Position numbers and translations under genes: made by a program. The notes below the pieces were generated by a model. It saw nothing but the letters and a program-made list of their open reading frames with translations, made no database searches and was not told the DNA's origin. Below, piece by piece: positions 6,011 through 17,603 of a DNA stretch of 24,000 nucleotides (positions within the stretch are counted from its first letter, which is position 1; each line of letters opens with the position of its first letter). Origin of the DNA: an uncultured Chloroflexota bacterium (lineage in GTDB: Bacteria > Chloroflexota > UBA6077 > CF-72); contig CAYSYM010000005.1 in the NCBI GenBank assembly GCA_964435115.1, forward strand, positions 68,224-92,223. Reading direction: 5' to 3'.

Positions 6011-7219
6011 ATGCAGCTCCCAACGCCGTTCACCCTCGCGCGCCGCGTCGCCGTCGTCATCGCCGTGGCCGCGTTCGCCGCCGCGTGCGCGCCGGCCGCG
6101 CAGCCGACGCCGACCACGGCGCCGGCCAAGCCGACCGAGGCGCCCAAGCCCACCGTGGCGGCCTCGCCCGCCGCGGCGCCGAGCCCCAGCCCGGCCGCCA
6201 AGCCGGCCGCGGCCGCCAGCCCGGCCGCGGGGGCCCCGGGCCCCGTGGCGACCAAGCCCGCGCAGAACCCCACCGACAAGCTCAGCCTGGTCTACGGCAG
6301 CCCGGTGACCCCGCCCAGCCTGGTCCACATGCCGCCGTACATCGCCCAGGCGATGGGCTTCTTCGACGAAGTCGGCTTGAACGTGGAGATCAAGTCCTTT
6401 GAAGGCGGCGTCGGGGCGCTGCGCGGTGGCATCTCGGGCGGCCTGGACATCGTCGGCACCAGCTCCGACCCGCTCTTCGCCGCCATCCAGCAGGGCGCGC
6501 CGGTCAAGGCCATCGGCACCTACGCGCCCAAGCTGAGCGTCGTCATGATGGCCAGGCCGGACATCAAGACGCCCCAGGACCTGAAGGGTCGCAAGCTGGG
6601 CATCCAGGAAGTCGGGGGCTTCAACGACGTCATGTCGCGCCTGGTGCTGCAGAGCGCCGGGATCTCGCCCAACGACGTGCAGTTCGTCACCGTGGCGACC
6701 GCCAACCGGGTGTCCTCGATGGTCCAGGGCCAGACCGAGGCGACCGTGCTGCACGCCGACCAGTACTACGCCGCGCTGGCCGCCGACCCCAACTTCAACG
6801 TCATGGCCCGCCTGTGGGAGGTCGTGCCGGACTGGTGGTACTCGGCGTTCGTCGCGTCGGACGACGTCATCAAGAACAAGCGCGAAGCGTTGGTCCGCTT
6901 CATGACGGCGGTCGTCAAGGCGCAGCGCTTCATGTACACGAACCCCGAGGAGACGAAGCGCATCGCGGTCGAGGAGACGAAGCGCAAGCCGGACGAGATC
7001 GAGAAGGCCTACGCCGACCTGGTCCGGGGCGGCATCTGGAGCGTCAACGACGGCATGCCGCGCAACATGGTCGAGTACACCGTCCGCAAGGAGATCGAGG
7101 TCGGCATCGTCCGGCCGGACAACCCGCCGACCTACGAGCAGATCGTGGACAAGTCGATCATCGACGAGGCCGTCAGGCGCAACGGTGGCGCCTGGACGGG
7201 CGACCCGCGCTGGTACTAG
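6011..7219 (+). CDS. ABC transporter substrate-binding lipoprotein, NMT1/THI5-like (NitT/TauT family)
   Basis: AAGGAG lies 8 nt upstream of ATG 6011. Signal peptide with lipobox (FAAAC) is followed by a ~65-aa Pro/Ala/Thr tether. The NMT1-like domain follows (LSLVYGSPVTPPSLVHMPPYIAQAMGFFDEVGLNVEIKSFEGG...). Confidence 0.85.
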   Translation: MQLPTPFTLARRVAVVIAVAAFAAACAPAAQPTPTTAPAKPTEAPKPTVAASPAAAPSPSPAAKPAAAASPAAGAPGPVATKPAQNPTDKLSLVYGSPVTPPSLVHMPPYIAQAMGFFDEVGLNVEIKSFEGGVGALRGGISGGLDIVGTSSDPLFAAIQQGAPVKAIGTYAPKLSVVMMARPDIKTPQDLKGRKLGIQEVGGFNDVMSRLVLQSAGISPNDVQFVTVATANRVSSMVQGQTEATVLHADQYYAALAADPNFNVMARLWEVVPDWWYSAFVASDDVIKNKREALVRFMTAVVKAQRFMYTNPEETKRIAVEETKRKPDEIEKAYADLVRGGIWSVNDGMPRNMVEYTVRKEIEVGIVRPDNPPTYEQIVDKSIIDEAVRRNGGAWTGDPRWY

Positions 7220-7224
7220 CGCGG

Positions 7225-7266
7225 GTGTCAGGCGTCAGGTATCGGGTATCGGGTGTTGGGTGGTGG
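7225..7266 (+). repeat. tandem heptamer array A (6 degenerate GTGTCGG units, 42 bp)
   Basis: Read directly: GTGTCAG GCGTCAG GTATCGG GTATCGG GTGTTGG GTGGTGG. It starts 6 nt after the SBP stop and runs into GGAGGGG (7267-7273), which serves as SD for GTG 7283. Confidence 0.9.
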
Positions 7267-7282
7267 GGAGGGGGTGCCGGCC

Positions 7283-8161
7283 GTGGCGGGTGTGATCAAC
7301 GGTGACCGGCGGGTGTCGGCGGGCACGTCGCCCTCCGACACCCGGCCCCCGGCCCCTGGCGCCCAGCCCGGGCCGCCGCGGTTGGAGGCCGAGCCGAAGA
7401 TTCGCGTCGAGCGGGCGACACGGACCTTCGTAGACGGCGGGGTCGTCGCCTTCGAGGAGCTCGACCTCGACGTACGCCCCAATGAGACGCTGTGCATCGT
7501 CGGCCCGTCGGGCTGCGGGAAGACCACCCTGCTGCGCAGCCTGGCCGGACTCCTCCCGCTGACGGACGGGCGCGTGCTGCTGGATGGCAAGCCGGTCGCC
7601 AGCCCCACACCCAGCGTGGTGATGGTCTTCCAGCACTTCGGCCTGTTCCCCTGGAAGACGGTGTGGGAGAACGTGACCTACGGCCTGAAGCTGCGGGGCG
7701 TGCCACGCAGCGAGTGGCAGCCGCGAGTGGCCCCGTACCTGGAGCTGGTCGGCCTGGCCGGCTTCGAGGCCATGTACCCCTACCAGCTCTCGGGCGGCAT
7801 GCAGCAGCGCTGCGGCCTGGTGCGCGCCCTGGCGGTCAACCCGGACGTGCTCCTCATGGACGAGCCGTTTGCCGCGCTGGACGCGCAGACGCGCGAGCTG
7901 CTGCAGGAGGAGCTACTGCGCATCCTCGAGCGCGAGCGGAAGACGATGGTGTTCATCACCCACAGCATCGACGAGGCGATCATGCTGGGCGACCGGATCG
8001 TGGTGATGTCCGCGCGGCCGGGCCGAGTGCGCGAGCTGATCGAGGTCGGCCTGCCGCGGCCGCGGAACCTGGAAGCGGTCCGGGCGACCGGCCGCTACGC
8101 CGAGCTGCGGGTCCACATCTGGGAGGAGCTGCGGCCGCAAGCCGCGGCGGCGGTGAGGTGA
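7283..8161 (+). CDS. ABC transporter ATP-binding protein (NitT/TauT family)
   Basis: Walker A GPSGCGKTT, signature LSGGMQQR, Walker B LLMDEPF, H-loop ITHSIDE. GTG 7283 sits 9-11 nt after GGAGGGG. Alternatives are GTG 7253 (inside the repeat), GTG 7292 and TTG 7382. The first ~35 residues are Pro-rich and non-conserved. Confidence 0.85.
   Translation: MAGVINGDRRVSAGTSPSDTRPPAPGAQPGPPRLEAEPKIRVERATRTFVDGGVVAFEELDLDVRPNETLCIVGPSGCGKTTLLRSLAGLLPLTDGRVLLDGKPVASPTPSVVMVFQHFGLFPWKTVWENVTYGLKLRGVPRSEWQPRVAPYLELVGLAGFEAMYPYQLSGGMQQRCGLVRALAVNPDVLLMDEPFAALDAQTRELLQEELLRILERERKTMVFITHSIDEAIMLGDRIVVMSARPGRVRELIEVGLPRPRNLEAVRATGRYAELRVHIWEELRPQAAAAVR
7311..7343. repeat. 9-bp perfect inverted repeat built from the heptamer motif
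   Basis: GGGTGTCGG (7311-7319) and CCGACACCC (7335-7343) are separated by 15 nt, 45 nt downstream of array A, within the 5' end of the ATPase ORF as called. Confidence 0.8.
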
Positions 8162-12591: not shown

Positions 12592-13542
12592 ATGCCCCTA
12601 GATCCCCAGGCTGAGCGGTTCATCGCGGAGGCGGTCGCGGCCGGCGCGCGGCCCACCCACACGCTCTCCATCGCCGAGGCGCGCCAGGCGCTGCGCACGC
12701 GCCACGAGCAGGGTGGCGGCACGCCGCCGGCGATCGCCTCGGTCGTGGACCGCCAGGTCCCGGGGCCGGCCGGGTCGATCCGGGTACGGGTCTACACGCC
12801 GTTCGGTAGCGGCCCGTTTCCCGTGCTGGTCTACTTGCATGGTGGCGGCTGGCTGCGCGGCGACCTGGAGACGCACGACCGCCTGTGCCGCTACCTGGCC
12901 GACGGCGCCGCCTGCCTGGTGGTGTCGGTCGACTACCGCCTGGCGCCCGAGCACACGTTCCCGGCCCCGGTCGAGGACACTATGGCCGCCACCGAGTGGG
13001 TGGCCGCCCACGCCGCGGAGATCGGCGCTGATCCGACGCGGATCGCCGTCGGCGGCGACAGCGCGGGCGGCAACCTCGCCGCGGTCGTGGCGCTGCTGGC
13101 GCGCGAGCGAGGCCGGCCGCGGCTCGTCTTCCAGCTCCTCGTCTACCCCGTCACCAGCTACGCCTTCGACACCCCGTCCTACCACGAGAACGCCACCGGC
13201 TACGTGCTGACGAAGGCGGACATGGAGTGGTACTGGCACCACTACCTGCCCGACGCCGCCGCCGGGCGCGACGTGCGTGCCTCCCCGCTCCTGGCGGCGG
13301 ACCTCGGCCACCTCCCACCGGCGCTGGTGATCACCGCCGAGTACGACCCGCTGCGCGACGAGGGCGAGGCGTACGCCGCGCGACTCCGCGAGGCGGGTGT
13401 GCCGGCGACCACGCGTCGCTACCCTGGCATGATCCACGGCTTCTTCGCGCTCCCCGGTATCTTCGACCAGGGCCAGCGCGCGATTGACGAGGCGACCGCG
13501 GTCCTGCGCGCCAGCTTCACGCAGGTGGCCGCTCTTCCCTGA
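12592..13542 (+). CDS. alpha/beta hydrolase, hormone-sensitive-lipase-like (family IV) esterase
   Basis: GGAGG lies 5 nt upstream of ATG 12592. Oxyanion motif HGGGW, nucleophile elbow GDSAGG, acid DPLRDEG and His in MIHGF are in canonical order. Confidence 0.85.
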   Translation: MPLDPQAERFIAEAVAAGARPTHTLSIAEARQALRTRHEQGGGTPPAIASVVDRQVPGPAGSIRVRVYTPFGSGPFPVLVYLHGGGWLRGDLETHDRLCRYLADGAACLVVSVDYRLAPEHTFPAPVEDTMAATEWVAAHAAEIGADPTRIAVGGDSAGGNLAAVVALLARERGRPRLVFQLLVYPVTSYAFDTPSYHENATGYVLTKADMEWYWHHYLPDAAAGRDVRASPLLAADLGHLPPALVITAEYDPLRDEGEAYAARLREAGVPATTRRYPGMIHGFFALPGIFDQGQRAIDEATAVLRASFTQVAALP

Positions 13543-13562
13543 CCCACGGAGGTTCGCACCTG

Positions 13563-14555
13563 ATGGCTGTCACTACCCCCACCCCTGCGGCTGTCGTGCA
13601 GCCGACTCCCGACGAGCTGCAGGAGGCACTGCGGCTCATGCTCACCATCCGCCGGTTCGACGAGCAGGCGCTGGCGCTGTACCGGGCGGGCGAGATGCGC
13701 GGGACCACCCACCCGTACATCGGCATGGAAGCGGTGGGCGTGGGCGTGGTGGCGGCCCTCCGTCCAGACGACTACGTCACGAGCACCCATCGCGGTCACG
13801 GCCACACCATCGCCAAGGGCGGCGACATCAGGAAGATGATGGCCGAGCTGCTGGGCAAGGCGACCGGCTACTCGGGCGGGAAAGGCGGCAGCATGCACGT
13901 AGCCGACATGGACAAGCACATGCTGGGCGCCAACGGCATCGTCGGCGGCGGCATGGGGTTGGCCACAGGCGCCGCGCTGACCGCCAGGCTCCAGGGCGCC
14001 GACTCGGTCGCCGTGTGCTTCTTCGGCGACGGCGCGCTCAACCAGGGCATCCTGCACGAGACGAGCAACCTGGCGGCGATCTGGAAGCTGCCGGTCCTGT
14101 TCGTGTGTGAGAACAACCAATACGCCATGTCCACCCGGGCCGAGTGGAGCATAGCCGGCGGCGATCCGGCCGGGCGGGCCGCGGCCTACGGGCTGCCGGG
14201 CGTCACGGTCGACGGCATGGACTTCTTTGCGGTCCACGAGGCTGCCCACCGGCTCGTCGAACGGGCGCGGCGCGGCGAGGGGCCAGCGTACCTGGTCTGT
14301 AACACCTACCGCTACTATGGCCACCACGCCGGCGACCCGCTGAACTACCGGGGGAAGGATGAGGTGGACCGCTGGCGCGAGCAGGACCCGATTGCACGCC
14401 TGCAGCGGGCGCTCATCGAGCGCGGGGTGCTCAGCGCCGGCGAGGCGGCCGAGCTGGAGCAGCGCGTCGCAGCCGAGGTCGAAGCGGCGGTCGCGTTTGC
14501 CAAGGCCAGCCCGGAGCCGACGGTCGACCAACTGATGACCGACATCTACGCGTAG
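13563..14555 (+). CDS. 2-oxoacid (pyruvate/acetoin-type) dehydrogenase E1 component, alpha subunit (TPP-dependent)
   Basis: GGAGG lies 10 nt upstream of the start. Motifs: HRGHGHTIAKG, GGKGGSMH, and the TPP-binding GDGALNQG...VCENNQYAMST. Confidence 0.9.
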   Translation: MAVTTPTPAAVVQPTPDELQEALRLMLTIRRFDEQALALYRAGEMRGTTHPYIGMEAVGVGVVAALRPDDYVTSTHRGHGHTIAKGGDIRKMMAELLGKATGYSGGKGGSMHVADMDKHMLGANGIVGGGMGLATGAALTARLQGADSVAVCFFGDGALNQGILHETSNLAAIWKLPVLFVCENNQYAMSTRAEWSIAGGDPAGRAAAYGLPGVTVDGMDFFAVHEAAHRLVERARRGEGPAYLVCNTYRYYGHHAGDPLNYRGKDEVDRWREQDPIARLQRALIERGVLSAGEAAELEQRVAAEVEAAVAFAKASPEPTVDQLMTDIYA

Positions 14556-14579
14556 GTGTCGGGTGTCGGGTGTCGGGTG
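14556..14579 (+). repeat. tandem heptamer array B (3 perfect GTGTCGG + GTG)
   Basis: Begins at the base immediately after the E1alpha stop TAG (14553-14555). Runs into GAGGAG (14579-14584), the SD of the four-helix-bundle gene. Confidence 0.95.
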
Positions 14580-14593
14580 AGGAGATGCAGACG

Positions 14594-15001
14594 ATGACGG
14601 CGATGGCTGGCTACCGAGAGCTCCGGGTCTGGCAGGCAGCGATGGACCTGGTGGAGGGCGTCTACCGGCACACGCAGACCTTCCCGAAGCAGGAGGTCTA
14701 CGGACTGGCCGCGCAGCTTCAGCGGGCGGCGGTTTCTATCCCGGCCAACGTCGCGGAAGGACACGTCCGCGACCACCTCAAGGAGTACTTGCGGCACATC
14801 TCGGTGGCGCAGGGCTCGCTGGCCGAGCTCGAGACACAGCTCGAGATCGCCCGGCGACTGGGCTACGTCGAGCGAGCCGCCCATCGAGAGCTCCTCGAGC
14901 AGACGGCTTCCATCGGCAAGCAGCTCTATGCGCTGCGCAACTCTCTCGGCAAGAAGCTCAACACTGAATCGACGGCGCACGTGGAGCCCTCATGGCCGTA
15001 G
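14594..15001 (+). CDS. four helix bundle protein (23S rRNA intervening-sequence protein / S23p family, TIGR02436-like)
   Basis: Family-typical sequence [18 protein letters not shown]...[27 protein letters not shown]...[18 protein letters not shown]. In-frame starts are GTG 14570 and ATG 14585/14594/14603. ATG 14594 has the best spacing (9 nt) from GAGGAG. Stop TAG 14999-15001 overlaps the E1beta ATG 14992. Confidence 0.85.
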
Positions 15002-16026
15002 CAACTGCCCCCGACGCCCGACACCCGACACCCGACACCCGACACCTGACCTACGCTGAGGCGCTGAACGAGGCGCTGCGCGAGGAGATGCGCCGCGATC
15101 CCACCGTCTTCGTCCTGGGCGAGGACGTGGCCATCTGGGGCGGCGGCGGCATCTTCGGCGTCACCAAGGGGCTGGTGGACGAGTTCGGCCCCGAGCGGGT
15201 GCGGGACACGCCCATCTCTGAGGAGGCGATCGCCGCGGTCGCCATCGGCGCGGCGGCGACCGGCAGTCGGCCGGTGGCGGAGATCATGTACGTGGACTTC
15301 ATCGGCCTGGCGATGGAGCCGATCGTCAACCAGGCCGCCAAGCTGCGCTACATGTTCGGCGGCAAGGCGAAGGTACCGATGGTGCTCCGCGCCCAGGAGG
15401 GCGCCGGCCGCGGCAACGCCGCCCAGCACAGCCAGAGCCTGGAGGCGTGGTTCTGCCACATCCCCGGCCTCAAGGTGGTCACGCCCAGCACCCCCTACGA
15501 CGCCAAGGGGCTGCTCAAGACCGCCGTCCGCGACGACAACCCGGTCATCTTCCTCGAGCACAAGGCGCTCTACTTCACCAAGGGGTCGGTGCCCACGGAG
15601 GAGTACACGCTCCCGCTCGGGCTGGCCGACGTGAAGCGCGAGGGCCGGCACGTCACCGTCGTCGGCGTCCACACCATGGTGGGCAAGGCGCTCCAGGCGG
15701 CCGAGCGGCTCGCCGCGGAGGGCATCGAGCTGGAGGTGATCGACCCGCGCTCCCTGGTGCCGCTGGACGAGGAGACGATTGTCAGCTCGGTCAGGAAGAC
15801 GGGCCGGCTGATCGTGAGCCACGAGGCGTACACGCGGGGCGGCTACGGCGGCGAGGTCATCGCCCGCGTCGTCGAGTCCGCCTTCGACTACCTGGACGCG
15901 CCGCCCGTGCGCGTGTGCGCCCGGGACGTGCCCGTGCCCTACAGTGCCGTACTGGAGACGGCGGCCCTGCCGCAGGTCGACGACCTCGTCGCCGCGGCCC
16001 GGGCGCTGGTGGGGAAGGAGCTGTAG
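14992..16026 (+). CDS. 2-oxoacid dehydrogenase E1 component, beta subunit
   Basis: Conserved body [28 protein letters not shown]... with transketolase-like pyrimidine-binding and C-terminal domains. The only canonical start upstream of the conserved region is ATG 14992 (GGAG 5 nt upstream). The first ~18 codons ([18 protein letters not shown]) are encoded by the cassette end and heptamer array C. Confidence 0.85.
15011..15052 (-). repeat. tandem heptamer array C (CCGACAC orientation on + strand; 6 units, 42 bp, 4 perfect)
   Basis: Read directly: CCGACGC CCGACAC CCGACAC CCGACAC CCGACAC CTGACCT. It is the inverse orientation of arrays A and B and lies inside the E1beta ORF, translated as [14 protein letters not shown]. 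Confidence 0.95.
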
Positions 16027-16031
16027 CGTCC

Positions 16032-17603
16032 ATGGCGACGCCGGTGACGATGCCGATGCTCGGGCTGACGATGGAGGAGGGCACGGTTGCGCAGTGGCTG
16101 AAGGGCGAGGGCGAGGCGGTGCGGAAGGACGAGCCGCTCCTCACCGTCGAGATCGACAAGGGCACGGTCGAGGTGCCCGCGCCGGCGAGCGGCGTGCTGC
16201 GGCGGATCGTCGTCCAGCCCGGCCAGACGGTGCCGATCAAGACGCTCATCGCGGAGATCGCCGCGCCCGGCGAGGCGGGTGAAGGGGCGCCCGCGGGCCC
16301 GGCGTCTGTTCTGCAGCAGACGGCTCCGGCCGGGGTGGCCCCGGCGCCAGCGGTCCCGCCCGACACCGGCGCTCCGCCGAGCCCGGCGCAGGTGGCCGCC
16401 GCCACGGTCGCCTCCGCCCCGCCAGCCGCCACCGTGGCCCCGACACCCGATACCCGATACCCGGCACCCGAGACCCGGCTGTTCGCGTCGCCGCGGGCGC
16501 GCGGGCGCGCCGGCGCGCTGGGGATCGAGCTGGCGCTGGTCCAGGGGACCGGCCCGCGCGGACGCATCGTCGAGGAGGATGTGCTCGCCTTCGCCCAGGC
16601 GGCCCCGGCTCAGCCAGTGGGCCAGAGCCTGACGGCACGATTGGGCGCAGGTGGGGCCCACTTGCCGAGCGCCCTCGGGAGTCAGCGCGTAGCGCCTGGC
16701 GCCGAGCCGTCGCGGGTCCCGGCGACGCCGCTCGCCCGACGGATGGCGCTGGAGCACGGGGTGGCGTTGAGCGCGGTCCAGGGCACCGGTCCGGGTGGGC
16801 GCGTCACCCACGAGGACGTGCTGCGCGCGGCTGAGGCGCGCCTGGCGGGCACGGGCGCCGAGGCGGGGGCCACGGCCCCTGCGCCGGCACCCGAGACCCT
16901 GCACCCGGTCCCTGTCGAGCCGCTCAGCCGCCTGCGGCGGATCACCGCCGAGCGCATGGCCGCCTCGGCGCGCAGCGTGGCCCGGGTCACGCTGTTCCTC
17001 GAGGCGGACCTGACCGAGGCGGCCCGGTTCCGGCGCCAGCTCGCCCCCGAGCTCGCGCGGCTCGGCGTGGCGAAGCTGCCGTGGGACGCGCTCTTCGCCA
17101 AGGCGGCCGGCCTGGCGCTGGCCGAGCACCCGGGCGTGAACGCCCAGTGGGTCGACGGCCAGGGGCTGCGCCGGCTCGCCACGGTCAACGTGGGGGTGGC
17201 GGTGGCGCTGGAGCCCGAGGGGCTCGTGGTGCCGGTGCTGCGCCAGGCCGACACGCGGTCGCTGCGCGAGCTGGCGGCTGACGTCCTGGCGCTGGCGGAC
17301 CGGGCGCGGCACAATCGCCTGCGCCCGGGCGAGATGCAGGGGGCGACCTTCACCATCACCAACCTCGGCCAGTACCGCGTCGACGGCTTCACGCCGATCG
17401 TGAATCCGCCTGAGACGGCCATCCTGGGGGTCGGGCGCATCGCCGACAAGCCTGCCGTCGTCGACGGCCAGCTCCAGGTCCGCACCCAGTGCACGCTGTC
17501 GCTCAGCTTCGACCACCGGGTCGTGGACGGCGCGCCCGCCGCCGCCTTCCTCGCGCGCCTGGCCGAGCTGCTCGAGCGGCCGTACGCGCTCCTGGGGCTC
17601 TGA
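16032..17603 (+). CDS. 2-oxoacid dehydrogenase E2 (dihydrolipoamide acyltransferase)
   Basis: ATG 16032 follows AAGGAG. Lipoyl domain with TVEIDKGTVEVPAP (Lys codon 16158-16160). Two peripheral-subunit-binding-like segments. Catalytic domain ends with SLSFDHRVVDGA. The 718-aa track ORF from 15447 is an upstream out-of-gene extension. Confidence 0.9.
   Translation: MATPVTMPMLGLTMEEGTVAQWLKGEGEAVRKDEPLLTVEIDKGTVEVPAPASGVLRRIVVQPGQTVPIKTLIAEIAAPGEAGEGAPAGPASVLQQTAPAGVAPAPAVPPDTGAPPSPAQVAAATVASAPPAATVAPTPDTRYPAPETRLFASPRARGRAGALGIELALVQGTGPRGRIVEEDVLAFAQAAPAQPVGQSLTARLGAGGAHLPSALGSQRVAPGAEPSRVPATPLARRMALEHGVALSAVQGTGPGGRVTHEDVLRAAEARLAGTGAEAGATAPAPAPETLHPVPVEPLSRLRRITAERMAASARSVARVTLFLEADLTEAARFRRQLAPELARLGVAKLPWDALFAKAAGLALAEHPGVNAQWVDGQGLRRLATVNVGVAVALEPEGLVVPVLRQADTRSLRELAADVLALADRARHNRLRPGEMQGATFTITNLGQYRVDGFTPIVNPPETAILGVGRIADKPAVVDGQLQVRTQCTLSLSFDHRVVDGAPAAAFLARLAELLERPYALLGL
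16440..16481 (-). repeat. tandem heptamer array D (CCGACAC orientation; 6 degenerate units, 42 bp) inside the E2 linker
   Basis: Read directly: CCGACAC CCGATAC CCGATAC CCGGCAC CCGAGAC CCGGCTG. It is in frame and translated as PTPDTRYPAPETRL. Confidence 0.9.

What the first reader, a model, noticed from the sequence alone, without database searches (positions are those of the whole stretch)
14556..15052. Four-helix-bundle (23S rRNA IVS-protein family) gene bracketed by 24-bp perfect inverted heptamer arrays, wedged exactly between E1alpha and E1beta
Seen directly: (GTGTCGG)x3+GTG starts at the base after the E1alpha stop. Its exact 24-nt reverse complement (15022-15045) ends where the conserved E1beta sequence begins. 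The ~440-nt interior carries only a TIGR02436-like four-helix-bundle ORF. Established: this protein family was first noticed as ORFs inside 23S rRNA intervening sequences. Those IVS are flanked by inverted repeats forming an RNase III-cleaved stem, and the family is structurally related to DGR Avd. Inference: this is an IVS-like, possibly mobile or RNA-processed cassette sitting in a protein-coding operon rather than in rRNA. In the polycistronic transcript the two arrays could form a 24-bp duplex, long enough for RNase III, looping out the whole ORF. I know of no described element with heptamer-array termini carrying this gene.
Basis: partly seen in the sequence, partly recalled or inferred. 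Interest (0 to 1): 0.8.

Follow-up and report, generated by a model that had tools for sequence, protein, structure and literature searches.

The report
Four-helix gene between inverted heptamer arrays
A small gene of unknown function sits between two mirror-image runs of a 7-base repeat inside a metabolic operon, and the same pairing of this gene family with its own genome-wide 7-base repeat recurs across bacterial phyla, a link I found described nowhere.

Summary
(GTGTCGG)x3.6 starts at the E1alpha stop codon. Its perfect 26-nt reverse complement lies 442 nt downstream. Between them is one PF05635/TIGR02436 four-helix-bundle ("IVP") ORF.

The gene was found in none of 29 E1alpha-E1beta junctions fetched from relatives. 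The arrays are not private termini. One relative (G005) has the same array pair at this junction with no gene. GTGTYGG arrays are also scattered over this genome.

The pattern is general. Of 100 PF05635 genes from many phyla, 71 are hugged by inverted period-7 arrays, against 0 of about 95 in shifted controls. The heptamer differs from locus to locus. In every genome tested, the heptamer beside an IVP gene is also that genome's dispersed family, and it is missing from relatives that lack that IVP. Xanthomonas XCC0516 (PDB 2GSC) and Nostoc/Calothrix plasmid copies fit as well.

My best reading is a two-part protein-plus-cognate-repeat system. It has REP/RAYT-like genomic logic but unrelated parts, and the pentameric protein probably binds the arrays. 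The RNase III/IVS idea is untested, and here the E1beta start codon lies inside the loop. The mechanism is inferred, not shown.

The parts
13563..14555 (+). E1alpha subunit gene of a 2-oxoacid dehydrogenase. Its TAG stop (14553-14555) overlaps the base of the stem.
   Evidence: PF00676 at E 6e-91; ORF list.
14554..14579 (+). Left (G-rich) arm: (GTGTCGG)x3.6. This is the 26-nt perfect inverted-repeat arm.
14579..14584 (+). GAGGAG Shine-Dalgarno-like hexamer, 9 nt before ATG 14594. It abuts the inner end of the left arm.
   Evidence: Read directly. That it functions as a ribosome-binding site is inference.
14594..15001 (+). PF05635/TIGR02436 four-helix-bundle ('23S rRNA IVS protein', Avd-like) ORF of 135 aa. 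The longest ORF starts at GTG 14570 inside the array. The stop TAG 14999-15001 lies inside E1beta codons 3-4.
   Evidence: PF05635 at E 1.5e-35, TIGR02436 at E 1e-34, PDB 2GSC at E 1.8e-28. The choice of start codon rests on SD spacing and is inference.
14983..14994 (+). Host-derived GGAG ribosome-binding site plus the ATG (14992) of E1beta. It sits inside the loop, within the 3' end of the IVP ORF.
   Evidence: The ATGGCCGTAGC start is shared with E1beta of relatives L010, L011 and L022 (near-identical in L013 and L019).
15010..15050 (+). Right (C-rich) arm: (CCCGACA)x5.9, with the perfect arm at 15022-15047. It is translated as E1beta residues 7-18 ([12 protein letters not shown]).
14992..16026 (+). 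E1beta subunit gene.
   Evidence: PF02779 and PF02780; 74-88% identical orthologues in relatives.
16439..16477 (+). A further CCCGACA-type array of the same family inside the E2 (16032-17603) inter-domain linker. It is translated in frame.
7222..7369 (.). Another pair of degenerate arrays of the same family (7222-7260 G-rich, 7335-7369 C-rich). They bracket the intergenic stretch after the TAG at 7217-7219.

Best explanation
What it is (shown). A PF05635 four-helix-bundle gene was inserted, in this lineage only, between the E1alpha stop and the E1beta ribosome-binding site. It lies inside the loop of a convergent pair of GTGTCGG/CCGACAC heptamer arrays, with the G-rich arm first. This is one copy of a widespread two-part arrangement. 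PF05635 genes are typically hugged by inverted arrays of a lineage-specific heptamer, and the same heptamer family is scattered at tens to hundreds of gene boundaries in the same genome.

How it most likely works (inferred). The protein and the repeat are a cognate pair. The pentameric Avd-like protein recognises the heptamer arrays, about one unit per protomer. Arms are typically 4-5 units long. Its own gene sits between two arrays, so its expression is tied to them.

In this operon the cassette has no promoter or terminator of its own and is read on the E1 transcript. The two arms can close a 26-bp stem of about -59 kcal/mol. That stem loops out the IVP ORF together with the E1beta start. 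A ribosome finishing E1alpha at the TAG in the base of the stem must melt it. Protein bound to the G-rich arm, 14 nt before the IVP start, would compete with the stem and with initiation.

The dispersed arrays are either further binding sites or products of the same protein-dependent process. The genomic logic resembles REP sequences and their RAYT gene, but the parts are unrelated and no enzyme is known.
For: Insertion: the gene was found in none of 29 E1alpha-E1beta junctions from relatives.

Architecture:
- 71 of 100 PF05635 genes have flanking inverted period-7 arms, against 0 of about 95 at positions shifted by 700 or 900 nt.
- It is seen in finished isolate genomes too: L084, L087, L096 and L113 and the Nostoc and Calothrix plasmids L176-L178.
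- Over the 71 loci the median arm is 30 nt. The left arm ends about 20 nt before the start codon, the right arm begins about 6 nt after the stop, and the median loop is 408 nt.

Cognate dispersal. Hits are overlapping pattern matches.
- AGGCGAG: 70 hits at 11 or more loci in G014, and 0 in four other genomes.
- GTGTYGG: 41 hits in G005, and 0-1 in four family members without this IVP. G005 carries a 64%-identical IVP flanked by GTGTTGG-type arrays at another locus.
- AGTAGCG: 49 hits in G030 and 8 in G032, both with AGTAGCG-flanked IVPs, and 0 in three others.
- GGNTAGT: 51 hits in G005 against 0 elsewhere.
- TCAGCNN: 389 hits in G005 against 0-2 elsewhere.
- TCAGANN: 65 hits in G006 against 0-1 elsewhere.
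- TCAG-type arrays over 41 relatives: median 41 hits in IVP-positive genomes against 0.5 in IVP-negative ones, Mann-Whitney p = 7e-4.

Co-descent: protein identity correlates with unit similarity (Mantel p = 0.001).

Published organism: the supplementary table of Rehm et al. 2015 (PMC4692102) places a GGGAATC array on the start of XCC0516. XCC0516 is the closest solved homologue, PDB 2GSC, deposited with 5 chains.

Foreign origin: array-flanked IVP genes have lower G+C than their host flanks.

Fold: the array stem is in the MFE and the centroid structure, z = -5.2. The arm duplex is -58.8 kcal/mol.

No promoter-like or terminator-like site was found in 13300-16200.

No RT and no Y1 transposase was found in this genome.
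Against: - No binding or processing data exist. The protein-array recognition is inferred from co-occurrence only.
- Co-occurrence would also arise if the gene merely inserts into array hairpins that are already there.
- Unit similarity tracks protein similarity only weakly (Spearman 0.14). Two 74%-identical IVPs (L001, L048) have unrelated units.
- The unit of this genome's second IVP occurs nowhere else in the genome.
- Four IVP-negative genomes still have 11-34 TCAG-type hits, though three of the four are only 64-85% complete.
- Arm mismatches show no G.U excess, so RNA pairing is not positively supported.
- 29 of 100 IVP genes lack detectable arrays, including a subgroup whose G+C matches the host (L049, L058, L059).
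- Most genomes used are draft metagenome bins, and related genomes are not independent samples.
Confidence: 0.5

Rival explanations
1. IVS-like RNA cassette. In the polycistronic transcript the two arrays form a duplex that RNase III cleaves. This excises the IVP message, as happens with 23S rRNA intervening sequences, and splits the operon mRNA.
For: A perfect 26-bp stem is present in the MFE and the centroid fold, z = -5.2. The gene family was first found in rRNA intervening sequences and is still found in rRNA insertions. Complementarity between arms is kept although the unit differs at nearly every locus.
Against: The E1beta ribosome-binding site and ATG lie inside the loop, and the right arm encodes E1beta residues 7-18. 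Cleavage would therefore leave E1beta without a start codon. A ribosome terminating on the TAG in the stem base would melt the stem. Arm mismatches show no wobble excess, 60 G.U against 78 A.C. The idea does not explain solo arrays, arrays inside coding linkers, or genome-wide cognate families. None of about 110 IVP loci examined lies in 23S rRNA.
Confidence: 0.15
2. Passive coincidence. The heptamer arrays are slippage-prone simple-sequence hairpins that this genome accumulates at gene boundaries for reasons unrelated to the protein. PF05635 genes are small selfish ORFs that land, or are only tolerated, in the loops of such hairpins. There is no functional interplay.
For: Arrays far outnumber IVP genes: 45 strict period-7 arrays against 2 genes here. 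An empty array pair occupies the same junction in G005. In the window the gene is separated from the right arm by host sequence. Heptanucleotide repeats are reported as over-represented in many bacteria without reference to this gene (PMC4692102, PMC4679880). IVP genes are known to wedge into other operons, for example between cmr3 and cmr2 (PMC3936711).
Against: It does not explain why array families appear and vanish together with a particular IVP among congeners. It does not explain why one genome with four IVPs has three matching dispersed families (the fourth was not tested). In the methylase locus the arrays are absent from uninterrupted orthologues and arrived with the gene. No other gene family was seen filling such loops, although this was not surveyed systematically.
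Confidence: 0.2
3. DNA transposon or MITE-like element. The arrays are terminal inverted repeats of a mobile DNA cassette moved in trans by an unidentified transposase or recombinase. Gene-less pairs are non-autonomous derivatives.
For: The layout is terminal inverted repeats plus a single passenger gene. The distribution among relatives is patchy, 21 of 41 genomes with 0-5 copies each. G+C is lower than the host's. The whole array-gene-array block replaces a roughly 10-residue linker in a methylase gene. Direct array copies also flank 8 of 100 genes.
Against: Loops of gene-less pairs are unique local sequence, not a conserved core. At the E1 junction the pair encloses the host's own E1beta start in two genera. 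No target-site duplication was seen. No Y1 or RAYT transposase and no reverse transcriptase was found in this genome. Many arrays are solo. The termini are tandem arrays of variable length rather than defined ends.
Confidence: 0.1

Closest known systems
23S rRNA intervening sequences carrying an IVP ORF (Leptospira, Coxiella and others)
   Same: The same protein family (PF05635) is encoded in the loop of a long stem formed by inverted flanks. The insertion sits in an essential transcript without destroying it.
   Different: This one is not in rRNA. It lies between two protein-coding cistrons. Its stem is made of tandem heptamers that also occur all over the genome. The loop holds the next gene's start codon, so excision would be harmful. 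RNase III processing is unknown here. I could not check whether rRNA intervening sequences have heptamer arms.
REP/REPIN sequences and their RAYT (REP-associated tyrosine transposase) gene
   Same: A single gene is flanked by inverted copies of the repeat family that is dispersed through intergenic regions of the same genome. Families are lineage-specific. Several gene-family pairs can coexist in one genome, as in G005.
   Different: The protein is a 135-aa four-helix bundle with no catalytic motif, not an HUH/Y1 transposase, and none was found in this genome. The repeats are tandem 7-mers of variable copy number, not single imperfect palindromes. They also occur inside coding linkers.
Over-represented heptanucleotide repeats: cyanobacterial STRR, Xanthomonas GGGAATC and Nostoc GGGGA(T/C)T arrays (Rehm et al. 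2015, PMC4692102), Beggiatoaceae TAACTGA (PMC4679880)
   Same: These are tandem G-rich heptamers, typically about 4 units long, at gene boundaries and transcribed. In Xanthomonas 70-75 of them form convergent plus/minus pairs. Their function is unknown.
   Different: Those papers do not connect the arrays with PF05635 genes. Here the connection is the main result. It includes XCC0516 in their own table and Nostoc and Calothrix plasmid copies.
Avd, the accessory protein of diversity-generating retroelements
   Same: It is a homologous fold: weak matches to PF22296 and NF033474, and related by structure according to PMC10053308. From prior knowledge, it is a pentameric, basic, nucleic-acid-binding barrel.
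   Different: The scores are below the Avd cut-offs. No reverse transcriptase was found anywhere in this genome. No template or variable repeat was seen.
TRAP-type ring proteins that wrap RNA carrying regularly spaced short repeats
   Same: This is only a working analogy. A ring oligomer would match a tandem repeat whose period equals one protomer, and would sit next to start codons.
   Different: The fold is unrelated. Binding has not been shown for any PF05635 protein.

Membership tests
PF05635 / TIGR02436 four-helix-bundle (23S rRNA IVS protein) family | Full-length match to the family profile above the curated cut-off. | tested here: met
   PF05635: 122 bits against a cut-off of 33.8. TIGR02436: 119 bits against a cut-off of 24.
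PF05635 / TIGR02436 four-helix-bundle (23S rRNA IVS protein) family | Conserved core residues (G..R...S...N..E motif). | tested here: met
   Invariant columns R44, S48, N52, A54, E55, G56 in the 13-sequence alignment A1. The motif is reported in PMC3936711.
PF05635 / TIGR02436 four-helix-bundle (23S rRNA IVS protein) family | Pentamer of four-helix bundles. | not testable with these tools
   The homologues 2GSC and 2RLD are each deposited with 5 chains. No model of this protein was made.
rRNA intervening sequence (IVS) | Inserted in a helix of 23S or 16S rRNA. | tested here: not met
   It lies between the E1alpha and E1beta genes. No 23S-like sequence occurs in any IVP locus. The genome's own 23S gene has no IVP or array.
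rRNA intervening sequence (IVS) | Flanking inverted repeats that form a long stem enclosing the ORF. | tested here: met
   A perfect 26-bp stem, present in the MFE and the centroid fold.
rRNA intervening sequence (IVS) | Excision by RNase III. | not testable with these tools
   This needs end mapping or an in vitro cleavage assay.
REP-RAYT (REPIN) system | The gene is flanked by inverted copies of the repeat. | tested here: met
REP-RAYT (REPIN) system | The same repeat family is dispersed in the genome. | tested here: met
   and 54-58 and 64 for relatives.
REP-RAYT (REPIN) system | The gene encodes an HUH/Y1 transposase. | tested here: not met
   The ORF is PF05635. There is no PF01797 match in the genome, which is 90% complete.
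Diversity-generating retroelement | A reverse transcriptase gene and a template/variable repeat pair next to the Avd gene. | tested here: not met
   There is no PF00078 match in the genome. The Avd profiles score below their cut-offs.
MITE / transposon with terminal inverted repeats | A conserved internal core among gene-less copies, and target-site duplication. | tested here: not met
   Loops of 12 gene-less pairs in G005 are unrelated unique sequences. No duplication is visible at the window or methylase junctions.
Dispersed heptanucleotide repeat arrays (STRR-type / Xanthomonas GGGAATC-type) | Tandem 7-mers over-represented relative to other periods, at many loci, often in convergent pairs. 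| tested here: met
   There are 45 strict period-7 arrays, against 3, 17, 4, 22, 1 and 6 for periods 5, 6, 8, 9, 10 and 11. All 12 paired arrays are G-rich arm first.

The most novel reading that the evidence does not exclude
PF05635 proteins are the missing trans-acting partners of bacterial heptanucleotide repeat arrays (STRR, GGGAATC and the like). Each protein lineage recognises its own 7-mer, about one unit per protomer of a pentamer. It is needed to generate, maintain or use the arrays at gene boundaries. This would be a new class of protein-plus-cognate-repeat system, analogous in logic to REP/RAYT or CRISPR repeats with Cas proteins but built from unrelated parts. rRNA intervening sequences would then be just one tolerated landing site.
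Probability: 0.4. Interest if true: 0.9.

Novelty: categorically new. Interest (0 to 1): 0.85.

Why it matters
Two long-standing loose ends would be tied together.

The first is the unexplained excess of 7-base tandem repeats in many bacterial genomes. It has been noted since the cyanobacterial STRR repeats and in genome-wide repeat surveys, and it was studied in Xanthomonas and Nostoc without finding a function.

The second is a very widespread Avd-like protein family that is still described as functionally uncharacterised, known mainly for turning up inside rRNA genes and wedged into operons.

The link makes both directly testable in model organisms that already have a crystal structure (XCC0516) and transcriptomes. 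If the protein reads a 7-base code one unit per protomer, it would also be a new programmable nucleic-acid recognition module.

There are practical consequences too. These cassettes split operons, add repeat-encoded peptides to proteins (the E1beta N-terminus, the E2 linker, a methylase linker) and break assemblies.

Tried and rejected
1. Wobble test for RNA-level selection. Arm mismatches are 60 G.U-type against 78 A.C-type, with no excess.
2. Duplex energies of whole flanks, sense against antisense, gave 69 against 33. I discarded this because flank composition confounds it and the energies were implausibly large.
3. Stop-codon explanation of the G-rich-first polarity. Units contain a stop in 30 of 71 left arms and 33 of 71 right arms, so there is no asymmetry.
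4. Rule 'G-rich after stops, C-rich before starts' for arrays in this genome: 21 against 13 with crude gene calls, not significant.
5. Conserved MITE core in gene-less pairs: none.
6. Reverse-transcriptase or telomerase-like synthesis: no RT found in the genome.
7. RAYT: none found.
8. IVS in this genome's own 23S rRNA. The gene is about 670 nt longer than the model but holds no array, inverted repeat or IVP.
9. Direct repeats as the main flank. They flank only 8 of 100 genes.
10. Low-threshold tandem-repeat scan of the genome. It was swamped by GC-rich noise, and I replaced it with a strict autocorrelation scan.
11. Phage carriage: no hit.
12. Literature. Six full-text searches found no paper linking PF05635 to heptamer arrays. 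Subscription journals are not covered.
13. I could not establish the taxonomy of the source organism.
Full report
THE OBSERVATION. The sequence is as described. The E1alpha ORF (13563-14555, PF00676) ends in TAG. (GTGTCGG)x3 plus GTG begins at the next base, and the exact reverse complement lies at 15022-15045. The repeat finder extends the perfect inverted repeat to 26 nt (14554-14579 and 15022-15047) with 442 nt between the arms. The last two bases of the stop codon are therefore in the stem. A two-unit pattern with up to two mismatches occurs 14 times in the window against 0.64 expected. The only credible ORF inside is a PF05635/TIGR02436 four-helix-bundle protein (E 1.5e-35 and 1e-34). Its closest solved homologue is Xanthomonas XCC0516, PDB 2GSC (E 1.8e-28).

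First, the right array is longer, 5.9 units at 15010-15050. Second, E1beta starts at ATG 14992, upstream of the array. The start overlaps the IVP stop codon, and the array is translated as E1beta residues 7-18.

IT IS AN INSERTION, BUT THE ARRAYS ARE NOT ITS PRIVATE ENDS. E1beta homologues were found in 39 of 41 related genomes. None of the 29 E1alpha-E1beta junctions I extracted contains a PF05635 gene. One relative in the same family (G005, locus L004) has the 'empty' form at the same junction. There the TAG is followed by four GTGTTGG-type units, then a 57-nt loop that holds the E1beta ribosome-binding site and start, then four CCCAACA-type units translated as the E1beta N-terminus. Three genomes of other families carry inverted arrays of quite different heptamers at the same junction: L012, L018, and L013. 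L013 comes from the unpublished genome G038, and only this one statement rests on it. The other junctions are compact.

The E1beta start motif ATGGCCGTAGC, with a GGAG a few bases upstream, is shared with several relatives. So in the window the host's own initiation region lies between the IVP gene and the right arm. G000 has this 'MAVA' type of start, whereas G005 has the 'ATGACGACG' type of its congeners. The two genomes therefore seem to have acquired arrays at this junction independently.

THE ARRAYS ARE A GENOME-WIDE FAMILY. A loose scan of the 3.77-Mb, 71% G+C assembly finds 171 stretches of two or more GTRTCGG-like units. A strict autocorrelation scan finds 45 period-7 arrays. The counts for periods 5, 6, 8, 9, 10 and 11 are 3, 17, 4, 22, 1 and 6. 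More than half of the period-7 arrays belong to the GTGTCGG/GTGTTGG/GTATCGG family. Twelve are in inverted pairs, always with the G-rich arm first. Their loops are 4-23 nt (most), 118, 155, 373 and 442 nt, and the rest are solo. The window itself holds another degenerate pair at 7222-7369. It also holds an array inside the E2 linker at 16439-16477 that is translated in frame.

The genome's second PF05635 gene (contig 3, locus L001) is also bracketed by inverted heptamer arrays, but of an AT-rich unit (AATAGGA type). Among 41 relatives the family is patchy, present in 21 genomes with 0-5 copies each. Most copies are hugged by inverted arrays of a different heptamer each, even within one genome.

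A scan of one genome per species with an alignment of 13 of these proteins returned 80 loci. They come from Pseudomonadota, Acidobacteriota, Planctomycetota, Bacteroidota, Chloroflexota, Cyanobacteria, Bacillota, Cloacimonadota, Saccharibacteria and others. Of the 100 loci with enough flank, 71 have upstream and downstream inverted arms of score 12 or more whose best period is 7. The same test at positions shifted by 700 or 900 nt in the same loci gives 0 of 93-98.

The anatomy is tight. The median arm is 30 nt. The left arm ends about 20 nt before the start codon, the right arm begins about 6 nt after the stop, and the median loop is 408 nt. Forty of the 71 sit between co-directional ORFs on both sides. 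Finished isolate sequences show the same arrangement: L084, L087, L096 and L113, and Nostoc punctiforme, Calothrix brevissima and Nostoc edaphicum plasmids. Array-flanked genes have lower G+C than their flanks. The few array-less ones match the host.

GENE AND REPEAT FAMILY GO TOGETHER. In every case tested, the heptamer flanking an IVP gene is also dispersed in that genome and is missing from relatives without that IVP. Hits below are overlapping pattern matches.
- AGGCGAG: 70 hits at 11 or more loci in G014 and none in four other genomes, including its congener.
- GTGTYGG: 41 hits at about 25 loci in G005, against 0-1 in four family members. G005 turns out to carry an IVP 64% identical to the window's. 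It is flanked by GTGATGG/GTGTTGG and CCCAACA arrays at an unrelated locus.
- AGTAGCG: 49 hits in G030 and 8 in G032, both with AGTAGCG-flanked IVPs, and none in three others.
- GGNTAGT: 51 hits in G005 against 0 elsewhere.
- TCAGCNN: 389 hits in G005 against 0-2 elsewhere.
- TCAGANN: 65 hits in G006 against 0-1 elsewhere.

The last two belong to 50%-identical IVPs at the same gyrB-gyrA junction in two congeners. Their cores differ by one base.

Over all 41 relatives, a four-unit TCAG pattern has a median of 41 hits in IVP-positive genomes and 0.5 in IVP-negative ones (Mann-Whitney p = 7e-4). Related genomes are not independent, and draft bins lose repeat-flanked genes, so this p-value is indicative only.

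Protein identity and unit similarity are correlated, but weakly (Mantel p = 0.001). Pairs at 60% identity or more share about 5 of 7 unit positions, against 3.8 in the background. Outside the order, arrays of the IVP-flanking unit also recur at 7 to 10 or more loci of the same genome.

The published Xanthomonas campestris case fits as well. Rehm et al. 2015 catalogued 186 GGGAATC arrays, 70 of them in convergent pairs, with no known function. Their supplementary table puts array number 15 between bccP (XCC0517) and XCC0516, overlapping the XCC0516 start. XCC0516 is the crystallised member of this family.

DO ARRAYS TRAVEL WITH THE GENE? In the second cassette of this genome they do. The block array-IVP-arrays-60 nt-array (about 516 nt) replaces a roughly 10-residue linker of a DUF1156-type methylase. 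Uninterrupted orthologues have no array there. That heptamer occurs nowhere else in the genome.

Remarkably, the methylase frame stays open through the whole cassette, giving a 1177-codon ORF. The one left-arm unit whose TAG would fall in the host frame reads CAG.

In the window, by contrast, host sequence separates the gene from the right arm. A gene-less pair also exists in G005. There the gene looks as if it was placed into, or lost from, the loop of an array hairpin. Gene-less pairs in G005 enclose unique local sequences of 80-120 nt, not a common core.

MECHANISM. The following is shown:
- The cassette has no promoter-like or terminator-like site of its own.
- It has a GAGGAG 9 nt before ATG 14594.
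- Its arms pair in the minimum-energy and the centroid folds of 14540-15065 (z = -5.2).
- The arm duplex is -58.8 kcal/mol.

The following is inferred. The cassette is read on the E1 transcript. A ribosome terminating at the TAG in the stem base must open the stem. The stem would otherwise loop out the IVP ORF together with the E1beta start.

The strongest regularity is the cognate pairing of protein lineage and heptamer family. For that reason I favour a model in which the pentameric Avd-like protein binds the arrays. The solved homologues have 5 chains, and arms are typically 4-5 units, which suggests one unit per protomer. This is untested.

The RNase III/IVS model is weakened by the position of the E1beta start and by the lack of a wobble excess in arm mismatches, 60 G.U against 78 A.C. 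It is not excluded. A classical transposon is unlikely for several reasons. The loops are unique, the pair encloses host sequence, no target duplication is visible, and neither a Y1 transposase nor a reverse transcriptase was found in the 90%-complete genome.

The G-rich-first polarity remains unexplained. It holds in 56 loci against 12 and in all pairs of this genome. The choice of period 7 is also unexplained, and a few loci use period 8.

COMPARISON WITH WHAT IS KNOWN. The protein is a bona fide PF05635/TIGR02436 member. The element is not an rRNA intervening sequence, because its location test fails. It is not a REP-RAYT system, because it has no transposase and the repeats are not single palindromes. 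It is not a DGR, because there is no RT. It is not a MITE. It shares features with each of these.

Heptamer arrays as such are known (STRR; Xanthomonas and Nostoc, PMC4692102; TAACTGA, PMC4679880). IVP genes wedged into operons have been noticed, for example between cmr3 and cmr2 (PMC3936711). The family is still called functionally uncharacterised in 2023-2024 papers.

Six full-text searches found nothing that links the two. The library lacks most subscription journals, so prior description cannot be excluded.

VERDICT. The feature belongs to a widespread gene-plus-cognate-repeat arrangement that I could not find described. I rate it as categorically new as a system, with the mechanism open, and of high interest.

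Noticed in passing
window 7222-7260 and 7335-7369: A second, degenerate G-first pair of the same heptamer family. It brackets the intergenic stretch directly after the TAG at 7217-7219 and has no gene in its roughly 75-nt loop.
   Followed up: partly
window 16439-16477 (E2 gene 16032-17603): A CCCGACA-type array lies inside the E2 inter-domain linker and is translated in frame (PTPDTRYPAPETR). Relatives have unrelated linker sequence there. E2 shows two E3-binding domain matches.
   Followed up: partly
G000 contig 3, about 126545-127050 (loci L001, L142): The genome's second IVP cassette sits inside a DUF1156-type methylase gene. The host reading frame stays open through all roughly 516 inserted bases (1177-codon ORF). 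The one array unit whose TAG would be in the host frame reads CAG.
   Followed up: yes
G000 contig 55, 17271-20862 (L141): The 23S rRNA gene spans 3592 nt against a 2925-position model, so it has about 670 nt of extra sequence. At least two expansions appear early in the alignment. No IVP gene, heptamer array or long inverted repeat was found in it.
   Followed up: partly
L034/L039; L041/L155 and Xanthomonas XCC0516-0517; L043/L044/L046; L053/L055: The same operon junctions are occupied repeatedly in different lineages: gyrB-gyrA, accB-accC, ABC binding-protein/permease, and the position just upstream of uvrA. Different IVP lineages and different heptamers are involved.
   Followed up: partly
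L109, L130, L133: A few IVP genes (Cloacimonadota, Bacteroidales and an unclassified bin) are flanked by inverted arrays of period 8 instead of 7.
   Followed up: no
L086 (Planctomycetota bin): The arms are about 200 nt long, roughly 28 units of GTGGACG-type heptamers on each side of the gene.
   Followed up: no
71 array-flanked loci; all 12 paired arrays of G000: The G-rich arm is nearly always the 5' arm (56 against 12). This reads the same on both strands. Most units contain A-G-(G/T). Neither stop-codon content nor wobble pairing explains it.
   Followed up: partly
plasmid collection, hits H1-H25 (L174-L178): Plasmid-borne relatives of the window protein are almost all from Nostoc, Calothrix, Trichormus and Anabaena, the taxa in which STRR heptamers were first described. 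The two Nostoc PCC 7120 plasmid copies lie among transposases and keep only the downstream array. There were no phage hits.
   Followed up: partly
G000, whole genome: Eight E1beta paralogues match at E 1e-60 or better in a 3.8-Mb genome.
   Followed up: no
G005 contigs 32 and 54 (L171, L173): Very long or compound arrays of the TCAGCNN family occur here. More than 200 nt of TCAGCCG-type units run to a contig end. Clusters of alternating plus and minus arrays also occur. Such arrays probably break assemblies, which would make IVP genes under-counted in draft bins.
   Followed up: no
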